64,000 nucleotides of DNA from assembly GCA_902601345.1 (NCBI GenBank), contig CACKMK010000002.1:43571-107570 (forward strand), read 5' to 3'. The notes beneath the pieces are model-generated. The model did not search any database and was not told the origin of the DNA. It was given only the letters and a program-made list of their open reading frames with translations. The stretch is from an uncultured Candidatus Poseidoniales archaeon (lineage in GTDB: Archaea > Thermoplasmatota > Poseidoniia > Poseidoniales > Thalassarchaeaceae). Positions 1,249 to 41,772 of the stretch are shown here, one piece after another (the first letter of the stretch is position 1; every line of letters begins with the position of its first letter). Position numbers and translations under genes: made by a program.

Positions 1249-2751
1249 GTGAGTGCGTACGAAGAATTACTGACGAGACTGAAAGATATCGACTTAATTA
1301 GACAAATAGGGAGCCTATTGAGTTGGGATCAGGAGGTGTTGATGCCTCCGAAGGCGGCTCCTCTGAGGGCAGAGCAACTTGCTTGGATTTCGAAGACTGC
1401 ACATGAGAGGCTAACTGATGACAGAGTAGGAGAAATATTGGATGAAATTGAGTCCAATGATGATATGGATGTAATTAAATCGGCGAATATCAGGCTTGCA
1501 AGGGAGGCTTTTGACAGGGCAACGAAGTTGCCTACAGAGTTCGTTGAAGAGATGGCGAAGCATCGTTCCAAGGCTCTGATTTCTTGGACTGAGGCGAGGG
1601 AGAAGGACGATTTCTCAATTTTCCGTGATGACCTCGAAATAGCGATTAGACATGCGAGGATGAAGGCCGATTTCTTCGGATATGATGGTCTGAGATACGA
1701 TGCGCTGCTCGATCTTTACGAAAGCGGTCTAACCGTGGAAAGACTCGACCCACTGTTTTCGGGTCTTAGGGAAAATGTGACACCCCTGATCAAGGAAGTA
1801 GTGGAAAGGGACGAAGGGCCGGATTTCTCATGGGTTACAGAAAGCACATGGAGTCAGAAAGCACAGGAAGAGCTGAGCCAAAGTGTTTCTGAGGCAATAG
1901 GTTTCGACTTCGGGGCAGGAAGGAGGGATCTGTCCACTCACCCATTCTGTGGGGGGCCTAATCCCGATGATGTAAGGTGGACAACTCGCTATAGTGAAGA
2001 GGAGCCGTTCGGATCCCTGTTTGGTTCAATGCATGAAACAGGTCACGGTACGTACGAACAAGGTAGACCTAGGGATTTGGACTTCCAACCGGCAGGAAAG
2101 GCAAACGGTCTTGGGATTCACGAGAGTCAAAGTCGCCTCTGGGAGAATCAGGTAGGGAGATCCCGGGAATTTTGTGAATGGTCCATCCCGTTGTGGAGGA
2201 AGTTCTTCCCAGAAAATATGGACGGAGTCAGCGCCGAGCAACTATGGCAGGCAGTTAATTTGGTGAAGCCTGGTTTAATCAGGGTTGATGCTGATGAGGC
2301 CACATACAATCTACACATCATGATCAGGTACGAGATCGAAAAGCAACTTATTGCTGGCGAAATAGATGTAGATGATCTTCCTGATGCTTGGGACGAAATG
2401 TACCATGAATACTTGGGAATTAGAGCTCCTTCCCGTACACTGGGAGTTCTTCAGGATATTCACTGGTCAATGGGTGCAATCGGCTACTTCCCAACGTACA
2501 CTCTCGGGAATCTTTACGCTGCTCAACTGCTCGAGTCAGCCAGAAAAGATCTCCCAGAACACGATACTCAGATTAGGGAGGGGGACTTCTCACCACTACT
2601 CAATTGGATGAGGGACAATGTCCACTCGAGGGGAAGCGTGCTGGAGCCAGCGGAGCTAATCAAGGAAGCAACTGGTCAGGACCCTTCCCCTGATGCTTTC
2701 ATAAGATATCTTAGCTCAAAGGTTGAGAGGCTTTACGGAGTTAGTGCTTAG
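1249..2751 (+). CDS. carboxypeptidase Taq-type metallopeptidase (M32 family)
   Basis: 500-aa ORF with HExxH (MHETGHGTY), HESQSRLWEN and IRVDADEATYNLHI, the hallmark M32 motifs. GTG start. Confidence 0.9.
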   Translation: MSAYEELLTRLKDIDLIRQIGSLLSWDQEVLMPPKAAPLRAEQLAWISKTAHERLTDDRVGEILDEIESNDDMDVIKSANIRLAREAFDRATKLPTEFVEEMAKHRSKALISWTEAREKDDFSIFRDDLEIAIRHARMKADFFGYDGLRYDALLDLYESGLTVERLDPLFSGLRENVTPLIKEVVERDEGPDFSWVTESTWSQKAQEELSQSVSEAIGFDFGAGRRDLSTHPFCGGPNPDDVRWTTRYSEEEPFGSLFGSMHETGHGTYEQGRPRDLDFQPAGKANGLGIHESQSRLWENQVGRSREFCEWSIPLWRKFFPENMDGVSAEQLWQAVNLVKPGLIRVDADEATYNLHIMIRYEIEKQLIAGEIDVDDLPDAWDEMYHEYLGIRAPSRTLGVLQDIHWSMGAIGYFPTYTLGNLYAAQLLESARKDLPEHDTQIREGDFSPLLNWMRDNVHSRGSVLEPAELIKEATGQDPSPDAFIRYLSSKVERLYGVSA

Positions 2752-2767
2752 AAGTGGTGAGGTGCAC

Positions 2768-3853
2768 ATGACAGTATTCAGTCTGACTGACTACTCCTCC
2801 CTGGTCAGGGAGATTGGAGGGGAGTGTGCCTTCGTTAGAGTCTCAGGGAAATTACTGGTGTCGGGCTCCAAATCAGGAGAGGTTGCCTGCTGGGATTTGG
2901 ACAACGGTAAAGAGATGTGGAGATCAAAGTTCGAGGGTCCTTGTTCTAATGCGGATTCGAATAAAGATTTCCTGTTCTTCACAGAGTCAGATAGAGTTCA
3001 TTCAATTGTGTTGTCCTCTGGAGATGAGGCTTGGTGCGTGGAACTGGAGGGTTCTAGCGATCTTGTTAGAGTTTCTTCAGAGTGCGTTTGGGTGACTTCG
3101 TCTGTTTACAACTTCGAGATTCAGGACTATTCAGAGGGTTCGGTATGGAAAATTGACTATTCAGGAAAAGTTAGGTGGAAGGGTGACACGATAGGAAGAG
3201 CCTGGTCTCTATCTGATTTTCAAGGACAAGCAATCATGGGACTAAGTAGGCCTAAGTGTGGATATGCCATTGCATCCGAAACAGGAATTGAATATCTTGA
3301 GTTGGAAGAAAATAAGCCGATAACTGCTGGATGTAAATTAGATGGAGGAGGGATAGTTTTCGGGCATAGCAATGGATCGGTAACTGAGATATATGGAGAA
3401 GTCTGCTCTACCGTCAGCGTAGGAGACTCTGCGATCCGCGCGGTGGATTGCGGGACTAGTTGGGTTGCAGGGCTCGATTCTGGAGTCGTTTCAACCGGCG
3501 AATCCCTAGGATCATGGAAAATAGAGTCTTTTGGCTCCATTGATGTAGTTTCATTCGGTCCTTCGTTGGACGATGTCGCAGGCATATGGTACTCATCTTG
3601 GGACGGTAAAGGAGGAGTTTTCCTAGTAGACTCTTCATTTGGGAGTCTGCAGCTCGAGCTCTCTCACGAATCTAGGATAGTAACCTGTTTCGCTACTGAG
3701 CATACGATTTGCTTTGGAGATATTAGCGGATGCATACATGTAATCGAGAAGGAGGTTCTCCGGCGTCGTTTCGGAAGGCTCCCAGAAGGAGATATCGAAT
3801 CTGGAAGAGAATCGGAGCTTAGAAAGAAAATACGTGCACTGCGAGGTGCCTAA
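2768..3853 (+). CDS. hypothetical beta-propeller (PQQ/WD40-like repeat) protein
   Basis: Repeated motifs such as SGEVACWDLDNGKEMWR suggest propeller blades. The start is moved to ATG 2768 (preceded by GGTGAGGTG) to avoid overlap with the M32 gene. The ORF track starts it at 2723. Confidence 0.5.
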   Translation: MTVFSLTDYSSLVREIGGECAFVRVSGKLLVSGSKSGEVACWDLDNGKEMWRSKFEGPCSNADSNKDFLFFTESDRVHSIVLSSGDEAWCVELEGSSDLVRVSSECVWVTSSVYNFEIQDYSEGSVWKIDYSGKVRWKGDTIGRAWSLSDFQGQAIMGLSRPKCGYAIASETGIEYLELEENKPITAGCKLDGGGIVFGHSNGSVTEIYGEVCSTVSVGDSAIRAVDCGTSWVAGLDSGVVSTGESLGSWKIESFGSIDVVSFGPSLDDVAGIWYSSWDGKGGVFLVDSSFGSLQLELSHESRIVTCFATEHTICFGDISGCIHVIEKEVLRRRFGRLPEGDIESGRESELRKKIRALRGA

Positions 3854-3918
3854 TTTACAGTGGAAAAACACCCCAAAAACCCCCTATTTCCAGTGAACTG
3901 CTCCATTATTGACGAAAT

Positions 3919-3926
3919 GTTTATGT
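3919..3926 (+). promoter_or_regulatory. TATA-like box (GTTTATGT) with upstream purine-rich CGAAA, candidate promoter of the ncRNA
   Basis: It is the only A/T-rich element in front of the GC-rich structured block, about 25-30 nt upstream of the proposed 5' end at 3951. This matches archaeal BRE/TATA spacing from general knowledge. Confidence 0.3.
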
Positions 3927-3950
3927 GCCACCCATAACCCTGTGTTTCTT

Positions 3951-4523
3951 GCCGCTCCGGGGGAGTGGTGTGAGGGCGCTTCGGCGCGACTCGCGGGCCA
4001 CAAAAACCGAGCCCCGAAACCGGGGCGGTAAAACCGAAATCCGAAAGGAAATCGGGGAATGGCTGGAGCGTCTGTGGACGCAAAGGCCGCGGCGAATAAA
4101 TCGGACGAACTGGAGGTAACGAAAGGGAGAGCGAGATAGGAGCTGAAGAGATACACATGCGTAGGGTGAAGAGAATGAACCTGGGTCATGTAGGTGGGGA
4201 ACGAGGCAGAGATAACCGGACGCAAGGAAGGGGAAGGAAACCAAGGGAAACACCGGGCAACAAGGGCGGGGAGACCCGTGGAGAAGCCAGTATCGAGACG
4301 TGAAAGGAAAAGCGGAGACGAAGTACCAGAAGCGGATGCGGCGAGTGAAAGGGAGATCTATTACGAGTCGGAAAATGACAAAGGAAGAGCATGAAGTTCC
4401 GGAGTCGTCTACCCGGGGGAACCCGGGCCTTCGGGCCCGGGGGACACCCGGACCCTGCGGAGTTAACAGGGGGGGAAGCTCCCCCATGTGCTGAACCCCC
4501 TGTTGCTCCCACCTAATATCGGC
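3951..4523 (+). ncRNA. candidate large structured non-coding RNA, class unknown
   Basis: It lies in the 705-bp gap between convergent genes, which has only stacked low-complexity ORFs on both strands. Perfect hairpins are capped by UUCG (3976-3987, 4422-4441) and GAAA (4040-4049 inside 4034-4055). There is a 9-bp helix at 4465-4473/4496-4504. The 5' and 3' ends can pair (3951-3954 with 4520-4523, 3961-3965 with 4506-4510). The core is purine-rich on the + strand. Ends are approximate. Confidence 0.6.
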
Positions 4524-4558
4524 CCAGAAATTTCCTGAAGACTAGTGGAAACTACTGC

Positions 4559-6160
4559 TTATTCCATTGGACCAGTCATATCACCAGGTCTGACCCATTC
4601 TTCGAACTGCTGCTCATTCACCAGGTCCAGTTGGATAGCACTTTGCCTTAGAGTAAGTCCCTTCTCATGGGCATTCTTAGCGATTTTAGCTGCATTGTCG
4701 TATCCGATGTGTGGATTCAGAGCGGTAACTAGCATCAATGAGTTCTCGAGGTGCTCGGCAATCTTTGCTTCGTTTGCGCTGAGCCCGAGTATGCAATTTT
4801 CAGAGAAAGATACACAGCTATCTGAAAGCAGCCTTGTGCTATGCAGGAGATTATGGATCATCAACGGCTTGAAAACGTTCAGTTCGAAGTTCCCCTGACT
4901 TCCACCGATGGAGATAGCGACGTGGTTCCCCATTACTTGGCAACAGACCATAGTCATGGCCTCAGACTGTGTTGGATTGACCTTGCCAGGCATTATACTA
5001 GAGCCTGGTTCATTCGCGGGTAGAGAGAGTTCTCCGAAACCACATCTAGGTCCGGATCCAAGCCATCTCACATCATTGGCTATCTTCATCAATGAGGCTG
5101 AAAGTGTATTCAAAGCGCCAGAAGCTGCTACGATGGCATCGTGAGCTGCTAGTTGTGCAAACTTATTCTCTGCACTGATGAAAGGTAGGCCTGTTTTTTC
5201 TGAAATCTTACCAGCGACTATCTCTGCGAAATCGGGATGAGTATTGAGGCCGGTTCCAACTGCAGTCCCTCCTAGTGCTAGTTCGTACAAATCGTTCAGA
5301 GCCGTTTGAATTCTAATCAAGTCGGCATCCAACATCGACACGTAAGCACCAAACTCCTGTCCAAGTGTTAGCGGAACGGCATCCATGAGGTGGGTTCTGC
5401 CGATTTTGACTATGTCAGAGAACTCTTCCTCCTTCTCCGCTAAAGAATGTCGAAGTTTCAGTACTGATGGAATTAGTCGATGTTGTATTTCCTCAGCTGC
5501 AGCGATGTGCATTGCGGTTGGAAACGTATCATTACTAGACTGCGCGCGGTTTACATGATCATTAGGGTGTACCGGAGATTTACTGCCCAGCTTTCCTCCG
5601 GATATCTCAATTGCCCTATTCGCAACAACCTCGTTTGCATTCATGTTCGTCTGAGTCCCAGAGCCCGTCTGCCAAATCCTGAGGGGGAAATGGGAGTCTA
5701 GAACCCCAGAAATCACCTCTTCACATGTTTCCGTGATCAGTTTTCCAATGTCATCTTCCAGTACTCCGAGCTTGACATTTGTCTCTGCTGCTGCCTGCTT
5801 TAGGATTCCGAATGCACGAATCACAGATCTAGGCATTCTATCTTCTCCTATGTCGAAGTTGATCAGAGACCTTGCTGTCTGTGCCCCATAATATCTATCA
5901 GCAGGAACTTCTATGTCCCCCATTGTATCGGTCTCAACCCTTACTTTGAGATTGGTCTTGTTCGGTTTTCGAGACTTTTTCTCTCCAGAGTTCGGCTTGT
6001 TGATAACGGCTCCAGAAAGGGAGCTTTCAATCATCTTGGAAATAGTGGCAGATCTTCCCTCTCCTCTGCCCTTACCAACCCTAGCGTCCAATCTTCTAGC
6101 AATATCCTCAGGAATACTGACTGAAATTATTCTACGATCACCGACCCGATGTTTCGCCAT
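4559..6160 (-). CDS. fumC: class II fumarate hydratase with an N-terminal ribbon-helix-helix (CopG/NikR-like) extension
   Basis: [13 protein letters not shown] and [16 protein letters not shown] are fumarate-lyase signatures, and the TQSEA variant is FumC-type. The FumC-homologous part starts near aa 71 ([27 protein letters not shown]). Residues 1-50 read as RHH ([40 protein letters not shown]). Confidence 0.9.
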
Positions 6161-41698: not shown

Positions 41699-41772
41699 TG
41701 GAGCACGAGCCGGGATTTGCACCCGGGTCCATGGATCTGCAGTCCATTGCATAGCTGCTCTGCCACTCGTGC
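41699..41772 (-). tRNA. tRNA-Cys (anticodon GCA), CCA encoded
   Basis: The minus strand reads GCACGAG-UG-GCAG-AGCAGCU-AUGC-A-AUGGA-CUGCAGA-UCCAU-GGAC-CCGGG-UGCAAAU-CCCGG-CUCGUGC-U-CCA. It has a perfect 7-bp acceptor, a 5-bp anticodon stem and a 5-bp T stem. Discriminator U73 is typical for Cys. The D and T loops are non-canonical. Confidence 0.8.

What the first reader, a model, noticed from the sequence alone, without database searches (positions are those of the whole stretch)
3951..4523. Candidate ~570-nt structured non-coding RNA of no class I can recognise
The 705-bp gap (3854-4558) between two convergent genes has no credible CDS. The ORF track shows only 60-190-aa ORFs stacked on both strands, with low-complexity R/G/K/E or S/P/F/R translations. 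Composition shifts sharply from the flanks, with G+C-rich helical ends and a strongly purine-rich core on the + strand. I can read these perfect hairpins directly: 3976-3987 GCGC(UUCG)GCGC; 4011-4026 GCCCCG(AAAC)CGGGGC; 4034-4055 CCGA-AA-UCC(GAAA)GGA-AA-UCGG; 4068-4081 GCGUC(UGUG)GACGC; 4422-4441 CCCGGGCC(UUCG)GGCCCGGG; and a 9-bp helix AACAGGGGG (4465-4473) with CCCCCUGUU (4496-4504). The UUCG and GAAA tetraloops exist only if the + strand is transcribed. The proposed 5' end (GCCG 3951-3954, GGGAG 3961-3965) can pair with the 3' end (CUCCC 4506-4510, CGGC 4520-4523), closing the molecule as in other large RNAs. A TATA-like GTTTATGT box (3919-3926) sits about 25-30 nt upstream. I could not find the RNase P CR-I block (GAGGAAAGUCC), the SRP helix-8 GGAAG...AGCA block, or group II intron domain V. 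The known RNAs of this size that I remember (OLE, GOLLD, ROOL, HEARO) are bacterial. It may therefore be an undescribed archaeal large ncRNA.
Basis: partly seen in the sequence, partly recalled or inferred. Interest (0 to 1): 0.85.

Follow-up and report, generated by a model that had tools for sequence, protein, structure and literature searches.

The report
New large structured RNA of marine archaea
The gap between two convergent genes holds a real, separately transcribed, roughly 585-base structured non-coding RNA gene that matches no known RNA family, is conserved better than its neighbouring genes, and occurs across the abundant ocean archaea called Marine Group II (Poseidoniales).

Summary

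- **Distribution:** the element occurs at the same place in 41 genome loci and at least 120 marine metagenome contigs of Poseidoniales.
- **Conservation:** it is 87-91% identical in nucleotides where the flanking genes are 65-77%.
- **Not coding:** there is no codon periodicity, no conserved ORF, and the indels are mostly 1-2 nt.
- **Structure:** covariation is strong. About 92% of cells are paired in both end domains, against 26-54% when partners are slid. 26 of 43 and 18 of 35 pairs carry compensatory changes.
- **Strand:** G-U cells outnumber A-C cells 850 to 151, which fixes the + strand.
- **Promoter:** a GAAA/TTTAW promoter sits exactly 31 nt upstream of the conserved 5' end in 67 of 69 non-redundant copies.
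- **Known families:** Rfam 15 gives nothing. Published work found canonical Marine Group II RNase P and SRP RNAs on other environmental contigs.

Both ends form local hairpins.

The centre carries 0-6 copies of a GGA/GAA-GNRA hairpin module, so length ranges from 563 to 908 nt. Function is unknown. I favour an RNP scaffold. A partial earlier sighting, the 229-nt 'Tan1' RNA, could not be excluded.

The parts
3858..3900 (.). Conserved inverted repeat cAGTGGAAA-N19/20-TTTCCaGTG. It lies between the propeller stop codon and the RNA promoter. It could be an operator or the terminator hairpin of the upstream gene. Whether it belongs to the RNA gene is uncertain.
   Evidence: The GGAAA and TTTCC halves are at least 90% conserved across 69 non-redundant loci. 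Not followed up.
3914..3927 (+). Archaeal promoter: BRE-like GAAA (3914-3917) and TATA box TTTATGTG (3920-3927).
   Evidence: TTTA[AT] starts exactly at -31 from the conserved G+1 in 67 of 69 non-redundant copies. GAAA at -37..-34 is at least 90% conserved. The 22 nt between the box and +1 vary freely.
3951..4535 (+). The RNA gene, about 585 nt here and 563-908 nt in relatives. The 5' end is inferred from the onset of conservation and the promoter spacing. The 3' end is approximate, set by the weak T-run at 4532-4534.
3951..3994 (+). Hairpins H1 (3951-3958/3962-3969) and H2 (3970-3974 and 3976-3979 / 3984-3987 and 3990-3994, UUCG loop).
   Evidence: H1 has 4 of 8 pairs with compensatory change, and H2 has 6 of 9. 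Pair 3973-3991 flips A-U/G-C in 30 versus 34 copies.
3995..4005 (+). Nearly invariant joining strand GGGCCACAAAA. GGG(CC) may pair long-range with CCC 4453-4455 or with GGCCC 4521-4525.
   Evidence: Invariant columns. There is no covariation to decide between them.
4006..4087 (+). Hairpins H3 (4006-4029), H4 (4034-4055, GNRA loop, 3x3 internal loop) and H5 (4062-4087, conserved UGUG loop, purine internal loop).
   Evidence: Compensatory changes occur in 4 of 9 (H3), 5 of 6 (H4) and 7 of 8 (H5) pairs.
4110..4125 (+). Module copy 1: CU-GGA-G-GUAA-C-GAA-AG. It is a 2-bp stem, a GGA/GAA internal loop, one closing pair and a GNRA tetraloop.
   Evidence: The closing pair flips C-G (49) / G-C (15). 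The loop stays GNRA in 68 of 68 copies. GGA/GAA is kept in 58 of 68.
4150..4294 (+). Central domain closed by GAUAC/GUAUC (4150-4154/4290-4294). It holds hairpin 4156-4190, module copy 2 (4216-4231) and hairpin 4266-4279 (GAGA loop). It is purine-rich and variable in length.
   Evidence: Covariation in the closing helix (A-U 44 / G-C 18) and in the inner hairpins. Module copy number is 0-6. L120 carries a 106-nt tandem unit x3.7.
4299..4370 (+). Two helices, each capped by a GNRA hairpin: 4299-4301/4332-4334 enclosing 4310-4323 (GAGA loop), and 4339-4342/4367-4370 enclosing 4347-4362 (GNRA loop).
   Evidence: There are many pair types per position, for example 4348-4361 A-U 30 / G-C 26 and 4313-4320 C-G 20 / G-C 26.
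4383..4451 (+). Hairpin 4383-4386/4397-4400, and a two-tier hairpin 4413-4417/4447-4451 with 4422-4429/4434-4441 (UUCG loop).
   Evidence: 4 of 4 and 8 of 8 pairs carry compensatory changes. The outer tier 4413-4417 shows one-sided changes only.
4452..4514 (+). Most conserved part. It comprises the invariant strand GACCCUGCGGAG, a long terminal hairpin 4457-4473/4496-4510 with inner stem 4478-4481/4488-4491, the invariant loop CCCCAU (4482-4487), and the tail CACCU.
   Evidence: The invariant columns are. The helix is 97% paired, with 4 of 15 pairs compensatory (4466-4503 A-U 32 / G-C 19). The loop is identical in 67 of 68 copies.
4515..4535 (+). 3' tail (UCGGCCC in most copies) followed by a T-run. 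This is the probable termination region.
   Evidence: A run of 4 or more T lies within 40 nt in 31 of 68 non-redundant copies. The window has only TTT at 4532-4534. Some clades insert an extra hairpin here.

Best explanation
This is a single-copy, core-genome gene for a large structured non-coding RNA. The RNA belongs to a family of its own and is confined, as far as I could see, to Poseidoniales (Marine Group II archaea).

**Shown**
- It has its own BRE/TATA promoter 31 nt upstream of a conserved G+1.
- It is read from the + strand.
- It does not code for protein.
- It folds into a 5' domain of five or six hairpins, a central domain closed by a long-range helix, and a 3' domain ending in a long, nearly invariant hairpin.
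- At least six hairpins keep GNRA tetraloops while their stems covary.
- The centre holds a variable number (0-6) of one small module: a 2-bp stem, a GGA/GAA purine internal loop, one pair and a GNRA loop.

**Inferred**
- The RNA acts in trans as a stable housekeeping RNA.
- The conserved end domains pack through GNRA-mediated tertiary contacts into a compact core.
- That core carries the function by binding a conserved protein or RNA partner.
- The repeated purine modules serve as an expandable, multivalent protein-binding platform. In short, the RNA is the scaffold or RNA subunit of a ribonucleoprotein.

**My confidence**
- That it is a genuine structured ncRNA gene of no known family: about 0.95.
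- That it works as an RNP scaffold: about 0.35.
- That the partner is the adjacent, apparently lineage-restricted beta-propeller protein with a basic C-terminal helix: about 0.15.
For: **Homologs and synteny**
- 41 genome loci and at least 120 metagenome contigs carry it, always downstream of the propeller gene: 110 of 110 loci that have enough upstream DNA.

**Conservation**
- The RNA is 87-91% identical in nucleotides over at least 97% of its length where M32, propeller, fumC and cyclophilin genes are 65-77% identical.
- Assemblies often break inside it, as they do at rRNA.

**Non-coding**
- Substitutions are spread evenly over the three codon phases (190/200/208).
- ORFs change between close relatives.
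- 656 of 915 gaps are 1-2 nt long.

**Structure**
- RNAalifold finds 55 of 102 pairs with compensatory change in 36 copies.
- It finds about 30 helices in 69 non-redundant copies.
- 5' domain: 92.3% of cells paired versus 36-46% slid; 26 pairs and 241 cells compensatory versus 4-12 pairs and 12-45 cells slid; 0 of 500 shuffles reach the observed value.
- 3' domain: 92.1% versus 26-54%; 18 pairs and 133 cells versus 4-12 pairs and 4-49 cells.

**Strand**
- 850 G-U cells versus 151 A-C cells.

**Promoter**
- TTTAW lies at exactly -31 in 67 of 69 copies.

**Modules and GNRA loops**
-.

**Not mobile**
- One copy in the window.
- None in phage, plasmid or viral collections.
- The neighbours are housekeeping genes.

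**Propeller protein**
- It is a confidently modelled 8-bladed propeller (pLDDT 87) with basic C-terminal helices. All named homologs found are from Poseidoniales or other marine Euryarchaeota.
Against: - No transcript data could be examined here, so expression, the RNA ends and abundance are all inferred.
- The function rests on analogy, not on any test.
- The whole block M32-propeller-RNA-fumC-cyclophilin is syntenic (83/83, 110/110, 105/108, 92/96). Adjacency to the propeller therefore does not single it out as a partner.
- The propeller fold matches only generic scaffolds.
- One clade (L037, L075, L091, L146, L148) has no copy matching the strict module pattern. It may keep a variant with an AAA/AAU loop, judging by eye from the alignments; I did not test this. 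The module sequence is therefore not indispensable.
- The terminator signal is weak in the window (TTT only).
- The long-range helices are invariant, so covariation does not prove them.
Confidence: 0.55

Rival explanations
1. It is the same RNA as 'Tan1', or contains it. Tan1 is the abundant 229-nt Marine Group II non-coding RNA reported from Red Sea metatranscriptomes in 2016. On that reading the RNA has been seen before, though never characterised or placed in Rfam. This is compatible with the best explanation. It bears only on novelty.
For: - Hou et al. 2016 (PMC5069720) describe an unknown 229-nt RNA ranked 5th in Marine Group II RNA-Seq, with five homologs at 75-79% identity in Thalassoarchaea.
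- Between distant clades, BLASTN aligns only the first 170-206 nt of our RNA, at 70-76% identity. That is a similar picture.
- The RNA is present on at least one KM3 fosmid, from a marine group II/III euryarchaeote. I take it, from the name only, to belong to the Mediterranean set that paper used as reference (P0142).
Against: - The lengths differ: 229 nt versus 563-908 nt.
- Our RNA is 86-96% identical within Thalassarchaeaceae, not 75-79%.
- The paper notes when an RNA lies antisense to an annotated gene, as it did for RNase P. It says no such thing for Tan1, yet our locus is annotated with an antisense ORF on the KM3 fosmid.
- The sequence and coordinates of Tan1 were not retrievable: Table S5 is truncated and figures are not held.
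Confidence: 0.3
2. It is a large ribozyme or a self-assembling RNA-only particle, in the manner of RNase P or group I/II introns, or of ROOL/GOLLD cages, rather than a passive protein scaffold.
For: - Its size, the invariant unpaired strands (GGGCCACA, GACCCUGCGGAG, loop CCCCAU) and at least six conserved GNRA tetraloops are typical of RNAs with a dense tertiary core.
- Its conservation exceeds that of the neighbouring enzyme genes.
Against: - No recognisable catalytic core was found, and no match to any ribozyme model.
- 74% purine content and very low U in the centre limit internal pairing there.
- The centre tolerates large insertions and tandem duplications.
- Nothing here tests activity.
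Confidence: 0.15
3. It is a regulatory sponge. The repeated purine hairpin modules would titrate an RNA-binding protein, in the manner of CsrB/RsmZ. Alternatively, the purine-rich centre would pair with the pyrimidine-rich 3' end of 16S rRNA.
For: The copy number of one small module varies from 0 to 6 between lineages, as in sponge RNAs.
Against: - Shine-Dalgarno-like words are not enriched and are often depleted. GAGG scores z = -2.2 to -2.9 in three of five copies tested, and GGAGG z = -0.3 to -2.0 in four of five.
- The most conserved parts are the elaborate end domains, not the modules.
- One clade lacks the canonical module.
- Archaea have no CsrA (my own knowledge).
Confidence: 0.12
4. 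It is a cis-acting element of a neighbouring gene. Candidates are a long 3' UTR of the propeller mRNA, an antisense or termination buffer for the convergent fumC, or a leader.
For: It sits immediately downstream of the propeller gene in all loci and ends about 25 nt from the fumC stop codon.
Against: - It has its own promoter at a fixed distance, and conservation starts only at +1. The 22 nt before +1 vary.
- It persists where fumC is not downstream (L022-L024, L117).
- No + strand gene follows it.
- It is far better conserved than either neighbour.
Confidence: 0.04
5. It is a protein-coding gene, either the 188-aa antisense ORF 3921-4487 that public databases list as a hypothetical protein, or a small + strand peptide.
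For: Gene callers predict the antisense ORF in 86 protein clusters. Several 60-190-aa ORFs exist.
Against: - There is no Pfam match.
- There is no third-position bias.
- ORF frames and lengths change among close relatives, and indels are mostly 1-2 nt.
- Substitutions are compensatory across helices.
- U-poor, purine-rich sequence has few stop codons by chance.
Confidence: 0.02
6. It is a highly diverged copy of a universal RNA: RNase P RNA, SRP RNA, an rRNA fragment or a group II intron.
For: Its size and complexity are in the range of those RNAs.
Against: - No Rfam model matches, even at E<=10 on this copy or at E<=1 on four divergent copies.
- ARAGORN finds no tRNA or tmRNA-like element.
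- Canonical Marine Group II RNase P RNA (292-306 nt, RF00373) and SRP RNA (305-315 nt, RF01857) have been found on other environmental contigs (PMC5069720).
- The element is single-copy, with no intron-encoded protein nearby.
Confidence: 0.02

Closest known systems
OLE RNA (about 610 nt, extremophilic Firmicutes)
   Same: Both are large (about 600 nt), lineage-restricted and ornate in structure. Both have exceptionally high sequence conservation, sit as a single copy in the chromosome, and lie next to a lineage-specific protein gene. OLE works as an RNP with its neighbour-encoded partner OapA (my own knowledge, and PMC3413148 listed).
   Different: There is no sequence or structure match to the Rfam OLE model. 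The host is an archaeon, not a bacterium. The neighbour is a soluble beta-propeller, not a membrane protein. This RNA has a length-variable purine-rich centre with repeated modules.
Archaeal RNase P RNA (RF00373) and SRP RNA (RF01857)
   Same: All are housekeeping archaeal RNAs of several hundred nt, with stand-alone promoters, GNRA loops, purine-rich internal loops and rRNA-like conservation.
   Different: Their covariance models do not match. Marine Group II already has canonical versions of both on other contigs. No CR-I/CR-V block or helix-8 motif is present.
GOLLD, ROOL and HEARO large bacterial ncRNAs
   Same: They are large structured RNAs found by comparative genomics, and their function was unknown at discovery.
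   Different: Those RNAs are typically linked to phages, plasmids or transposon nucleases and are often multi-copy (my own knowledge). This RNA is single-copy, in a fixed housekeeping neighbourhood, and absent from the phage, plasmid and viral collections. No Rfam model matches.
Tan1 (Thalassoarchaea ncRNA 1; Hou et al. 2016, PMC5069720)
   Same: Same organisms (Marine Group II / Thalassoarchaea), no known family, and a proposed complex structure. It was reported as very abundant in situ.
   Different: It was reported as 229 nt, with homologs only 75-79% identical. Identity with this locus could not be tested, because no sequence was available.
CsrB/RsmZ-type sponge RNAs
   Same: Both carry a variable number of short repeated purine (GGA-containing) hairpin modules.
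   Different: Sponge RNAs lack large invariant structured domains. The GGA here lies in an internal loop, not in the hairpin loop. No CsrA homolog is known in archaea (my own knowledge).

Membership tests
Structured non-coding RNA gene (generic criteria) | Base pairs are maintained by compensatory substitutions beyond what phylogeny or a shifted register gives. | tested here: met
   - 5' domain: 92.3% paired versus 36-46% slid; 26 compensatory pairs versus 4-12.
- 3' domain: 92.1% versus 26-54%; 18 versus 4-12.
- Whole RNA: 55 of 102 pairs compensatory.
Structured non-coding RNA gene (generic criteria) | No conserved reading frame. | tested here: met
   Phase counts are 190/200/208. ORFs differ between relatives. 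Most gaps (656 of 915) are 1-2 nt long. No Pfam hit.
Structured non-coding RNA gene (generic criteria) | Own promoter, and a discrete transcript on the predicted strand. | tested here: inconclusive
   The promoter is conserved at -31 in 67 of 69 copies, and the G-U/A-C ratio is 850/151. The transcript itself could not be observed with these tools.
Archaeal RNase P RNA (RF00373, RF02357) | Match to the covariance model, and the CR-I/CR-V P4 core. | tested here: not met
   No hit at gathering thresholds, at E<=10 here, or at E<=1 in four homologs. Canonical Marine Group II RNase P RNA is reported on other contigs.
Archaeal SRP RNA (RF01857) | Match to the covariance model, and the helix 8 motif. 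| tested here: not met
   Canonical Marine Group II SRP RNA of 305-315 nt is reported on other contigs.
OLE, GOLLD, ROOL and HEARO large ncRNAs; group I and II introns; rRNA | Match to the Rfam covariance model of the family. | tested here: not met
   No such family appears among all hits with E<=10 in 3800-4650, nor in the homolog loci.
tRNA-like or tmRNA | A tRNA-like domain detectable by ARAGORN. | tested here: not met
   0 genes in 3800-4700.
Tan1 (PMC5069720) | Sequence identity with the published 229-nt RNA and its five Thalassoarchaea homologs. | not testable with these tools
   The sequence is not in the text held. Table S5 is truncated and figures are not held.
Mobile or repeat element (intron, IS-associated RNA, phage RNA) | Multiple copies, variable context, or association with phage, plasmid or transposase genes. 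| tested here: not met
   - One copy in the window.
- The same neighbours in 110 of 110 and 105 of 108 loci.
- None in the viral, phage or plasmid collections.

The most novel reading that the evidence does not exclude
This may be the first lineage-specific large RNA of Archaea with a function of its own: a new ribozyme, or the RNA core of an unknown RNP machine. It would be specific to one of the most abundant archaeal orders of the surface ocean and conserved at rRNA-like levels. It would have been overlooked because gene callers annotate its antisense strand as a hypothetical protein.
Probability: 0.2. Interest if true: 0.92.

Novelty: categorically new. Interest (0 to 1): 0.8.

Why it matters
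Beyond rRNA, RNase P RNA and SRP RNA, I know of no large, ornately structured RNA classes in Archaea. The known 'orphan' large RNAs (OLE, GOLLD, ROOL, HEARO) are essentially bacterial (my own knowledge).

A roughly 600-nt RNA that evolves more slowly than the enzymes around it points to an unrecognised cellular function in these uncultured organisms. It occurs in every Poseidoniales locus examined. Those loci include 41 GTDB species-representative genomes, 8 of which break off within or just after the RNA.

It has three practical uses:
- It is a ready target for cryo-EM, SHAPE and metatranscriptome mining.
- It corrects 86 clusters of spurious 'hypothetical proteins'.
- It offers a conserved marker for Marine Group II.

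Its expandable module array may also show how large RNAs grow.

Tried and rejected
- **Rfam:** searched at gathering and at permissive thresholds, on this copy and on four divergent copies. Nothing was found.
- **ARAGORN:** no tRNA or tmRNA-like domain.
rejected. 3961 G>U in 30 copies and 3962 G>A in 6 copies break it. The same changes are compensated in local hairpin H1.
- **Alternative helix GCCGC 3951-3955 with GCGGC 4090-4094:** rejected by eye. L026-type copies would give C-A mismatches.
- **Anti-Shine-Dalgarno sponge:** rejected. GGAGG and GAGG are not enriched and are mostly depleted relative to dinucleotide shuffles.
- **Mutual information for long-range or pseudoknot pairs:** the signal was dominated by clade-defining positions and gave nothing usable.
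- **Transcript-like contigs via the spurious antisense ORF:** only a metagenome contig was returned.
- **Tan1 sequence from the paper's supplements:** the table is truncated.
- **Literature on Poseidoniales, Marine Group II or archaeal large ncRNAs:** nothing beyond the 2016 paper.
- **Viral contig hit L163 from a 5'-motif scan:** a chance match with no similarity.
- **Propeller fold search:** only generic propellers, so no functional lead.
- **Synteny as evidence for a propeller partner:** weakened, because the whole five-gene block is syntenic.
- **tRNA promoter comparison:** uninformative.
Full report
**1. Checking the observation**

The region 3854-4558 lies between a 376-aa PQQ/BamB-like beta-propeller gene (2723-3853, +) and a class II fumarase gene (4559-6160, -). 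So are the GTTTATGT box at 3919-3926 and the terminal GCCG/GGGAG and CUCCC/CGGC words.

The composition shift is real. Purines make up 74% of 4100-4380, against 50% for the whole window. U is only 12% of the element.

On a single sequence the folding signal is modest: MFE z = -2.6 on the + strand and -1.9 on the - strand. The case therefore had to be made by comparison with relatives.

**2. Known RNA families**

Rfam 15 finds only a tRNA in the whole window at gathering thresholds. A permissive scan of 3800-4650 returns only chance-level matches with E of 0.3 or more. A scan of four divergent homologous loci finds nothing at the element. ARAGORN sees no tRNA or tmRNA-like domain.

**3. Relatives**

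The propeller protein has homologs named only from Poseidoniales/Thalassarchaeaceae or, more broadly, marine Euryarchaeota.

- A scan of one genome per GTDB species with an alignment of that protein gave 41 loci. All of them carry the intergenic element directly downstream.
- One of those contigs, L084 (a TARA assembly contig), is 100% identical to the window.

In loci found through the RNA alone, the neighbourhood is the same:

| Neighbour | Loci with it / loci with enough flanking DNA |
|---|---|
| Propeller, upstream | 110 / 110 |
| M32 carboxypeptidase, upstream | 83 / 83 |
| fumC, downstream | 105 / 108 |
| Cyclophilin, downstream | 92 / 96 |

The element is kept in L022-L024 and L117, where fumC is not downstream.

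There is one copy in the window. There is none in the viral, phage or plasmid collections. The single viral hit to a 5' motif was a chance match. The surrounding genes are ordinary housekeeping genes: ferritin-like, M32 peptidase, cyclophilin, a tRNA-binding-domain protein and the PolD large subunit.

**4. Conservation**

At intermediate divergence (for example L009, L013, L021, L052, L092), the element is 87-91% identical in nucleotides over at least 97% of its length. The M32, propeller, fumC and cyclophilin genes in the same loci are 65-77% identical.

Many MAG and metagenome contigs start or stop inside the element. That is the behaviour of rRNA-like sequences shared between co-occurring strains.

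**5. Not coding**

- Substitutions are spread evenly over the three phases (190/200/208).
- The longest ORFs change frame and length between close relatives.
- Most gaps (656 of 915) are 1-2 nt long.
- No ORF has a Pfam match.

Even so, the 188-aa antisense ORF (3921-4487) is deposited as a 'hypothetical protein' in 86 protein clusters. One of them comes from a Marine Group II/III fosmid, KM3_62_D04.

**6. Structure**

RNAalifold on 36 copies predicts 102 pairs, of which 55 carry compensatory changes. On 69 non-redundant copies (96% identity or less) it gives about 30 helices.

I tested a fixed structure for each end domain against controls:

| Measure | 5' domain (43 pairs) | 3' domain (35 pairs) |
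|---|---|---|
| Cells paired | 92.3% | 92.1% |
| Cells paired when partners slid 1-3 columns | 36-46% | 26-54% |
| Pairs with compensatory change | 26 | 18 |
| Same, slid | 4-12 | 4-12 |
| Cells with compensatory change | 241 | 133 |
| Same, slid | 12-45 | 4-49 |

In both domains, 0 of 500 shuffles reached the observed percentage paired, number of compensatory pairs or covariation score.

The strand is fixed by the wobble pairs. There are 850 G-U cells against 151 A-C cells in the predicted pairs, and several G-U pairs are invariant.

**7. Architecture (window coordinates)**

- **5' domain:** H1 3951-3969, H2 3970-3994 (UUCG loop), the invariant joiner GGGCCACAAAA, H3 4006-4029, H4 4034-4055 (GNRA loop), and H5 4062-4087 (conserved UGUG loop).
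- **Central domain:** closed by GAUAC/GUAUC (4150-4154/4290-4294). It is followed by two helices, each capped by a GNRA hairpin (4299-4334 and 4339-4370).
- **3' domain:** hairpin 4383-4400, the two-tier hairpin 4413-4451, the invariant strand GACCCUGCGGAG, and a long terminal hairpin 4457-4510. The loop of that hairpin, CCCCAU, is identical in 67 of 68 copies.

At least six loops stay within the GNRA class while their stems covary.

3961 is U in 30 copies and 3962 is A in 6 copies, which gives U-C and A-C against the invariant 3' CUCCC. The 3962 changes are compensated inside H1, where pair 3958-3962 is C-G in 59 copies and U-A in 6. CUCCC itself pairs locally with GGAG at 4459-4462.

Candidate long-range pairings are GGGCC 3995-3999 with GGCCC 4521-4525, or GGG with CCC 4453-4455. 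These positions are invariant, so the pairings remain untested.

**8. The variable centre**

Length ranges from 563 to 908 nt. The difference comes largely from one small module, YY-GGA-S-GNRA-S-GAA-RR. The window has two copies, at 4110-4125 and 4216-4231.

- The closing pair flips C-G/G-C.
- The loop stays GNRA.
- The GGA/GAA internal loop is kept in 58 of 68 copies.
- Copy number runs from 0 to 6.
- L120 carries a 106-nt unit repeated 3.7 times.
- One clade (L037, L075, L091, L146, L148) lacks the canonical sequence. By eye, from the alignments, it may keep the same shape with an AAA/AAU loop.

**9. Ends and promoter**

Conservation begins abruptly at G3951. TTTA[AT] begins exactly 31 nt upstream in 67 of 69 non-redundant copies, preceded by GAAA at -37..-34. 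The bases between the box and +1 vary. This is the geometry of an archaeal BRE/TATA promoter with the start about 25 nt downstream of the box (established knowledge).

The 3' end is less sharp. After GCUCCCACCU and (mostly) UCGGCCC, a run of 4 or more T follows within 40 nt in 31 of 68 copies. The window has only TTT at 4532-4534.

**10. What it is not**

Hou et al. 2016 (PMC5069720) found canonical Marine Group II RNase P RNA (292-306 nt, RF00373) and SRP RNA (305-315 nt, RF01857) on other environmental contigs. This RNA is therefore not a disguised version of either.

It is not a cis element of fumC, because it persists without fumC. It is not a 3' UTR either, because it has its own promoter and conservation starts at +1.

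The idea of a sponge for the 16S anti-Shine-Dalgarno sequence fails. GGAGG and GAGG are at or below the expectation from dinucleotide shuffles.

**11. What it most likely does**

**Shown:** it is a single-copy, core-genome, independently promoted, highly structured RNA that is under stronger constraint than neighbouring enzyme genes.

**Inferred:** it is a stable trans-acting RNA. Its conserved end domains would form a compact, GNRA-stitched core that carries the function. Its purine modules would form an expandable platform for protein binding. That makes it the RNA subunit or scaffold of an RNP.

The adjacent propeller protein appears restricted to this lineage and lacks an evident signal peptide on inspection. 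AlphaFold models it as an 8-bladed propeller (pLDDT 87) with a conserved basic C-terminal helix. It is a candidate partner by analogy with OLE/OapA. The evidence is weak, however. The entire five-gene block is syntenic, and the fold matches only generic propellers.

A ribozyme or an RNA-only assembly remains possible. Nothing here tests activity.

**12. Novelty**

No Rfam family and no paper in the searchable library describes this RNA.

There is one caveat. The same 2016 paper named an abundant 229-nt Marine Group II RNA 'Tan1', with homologs at 75-79% identity in Thalassoarchaea. Its sequence was not retrievable. The length and the identity levels differ from ours. However, between distant clades BLASTN aligns only the 5' 170-206 nt of our RNA, at 70-76%, so an overlap cannot be excluded. 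I put it at about 0.3.

Even if Tan1 overlaps this locus, four things established here would remain new: the full-length roughly 585-nt gene, its three-domain covarying structure, its modular centre, and its presence across Poseidoniales.

**13. Verdict**

This is a genuine new family of large structured non-coding RNA in Marine Group II archaea. Function is unknown, and an RNP scaffold is my working model.

Noticed in passing
window 3858-3900: A conserved inverted repeat, cAGTGGAAA-N19/20-TTTCCaGTG, lies directly after the propeller stop codon and about 14 nt upstream of the RNA's BRE/TATA. The GGAAA and TTTCC halves are at least 90% conserved in 69 non-redundant loci. It could be a transcription-factor operator for the RNA promoter, or the terminator hairpin of the propeller gene.
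   Followed up: partly
window 4559-6160 (- strand), N-terminal ~70 residues: The class II fumarase carries an N-terminal extension with a weak ribbon-helix-helix (CopG, RHH_1) match (E = 0.012, below the Pfam cut-off). The extension is conserved in nearly all loci, since tblastn aligns from residue 1. A fumarase fused to a DNA-binding-type domain is unusual.
   Followed up: partly
window 2723-2768: The propeller ORF as listed starts at TTG 2723 and overlaps the M32 carboxypeptidase gene by 29 nt. Most homologs are 361-362 aa, and the first 17 residues model at pLDDT below 50. The true start is probably ATG 2768, which removes the overlap.
   Followed up: partly
window 3921-4487 (- strand); proteins P0058-P0143: The antisense ORF across the RNA is deposited as a 'hypothetical protein' in 86 clusters of public protein databases. 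One comes from Marine Group II/III fosmid KM3_62_D04. These are almost certainly spurious gene calls.
   Followed up: yes
L008, L010, L018-L020, L046, L047, L049, L051, L060 and others: Many MAG and metagenome contigs begin or end inside the RNA gene. Assemblies appear to break there as they do at rRNA genes, probably because the sequence is nearly identical between co-occurring strains.
   Followed up: no
L065 8400-8440: One contig lacks the first hairpin (H1). The TATA box is fused directly to GGGUGUG, a loss of about 40 nt. The two sister contigs L079 and L100 are complete. This is either a deletion variant or a misassembly.
   Followed up: partly
L120 9877-10278: The longest copy (908 nt) holds a 106-nt unit repeated 3.7 times inside the purine-rich centre. 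Nested inside it are 10-nt repeats, GGAGAGAACU and GGAAGGGGAA on the RNA strand.
   Followed up: partly
window 41702-41772 (- strand): This is the only Rfam hit in the window, a tRNA (57 bits). Its gene encodes CCA followed by CCUAUU. That resembles the RNA's conserved 3' tail CCCACCUAAU. It is probably a coincidence.
   Followed up: no
L028 7238-7292 (- strand): A weak match to the C/D-box sRNA family sR45 (23.6 bits, E = 0.26, below the gathering score) lies inside the fumC region of a homologous locus. It is likely chance.
   Followed up: no
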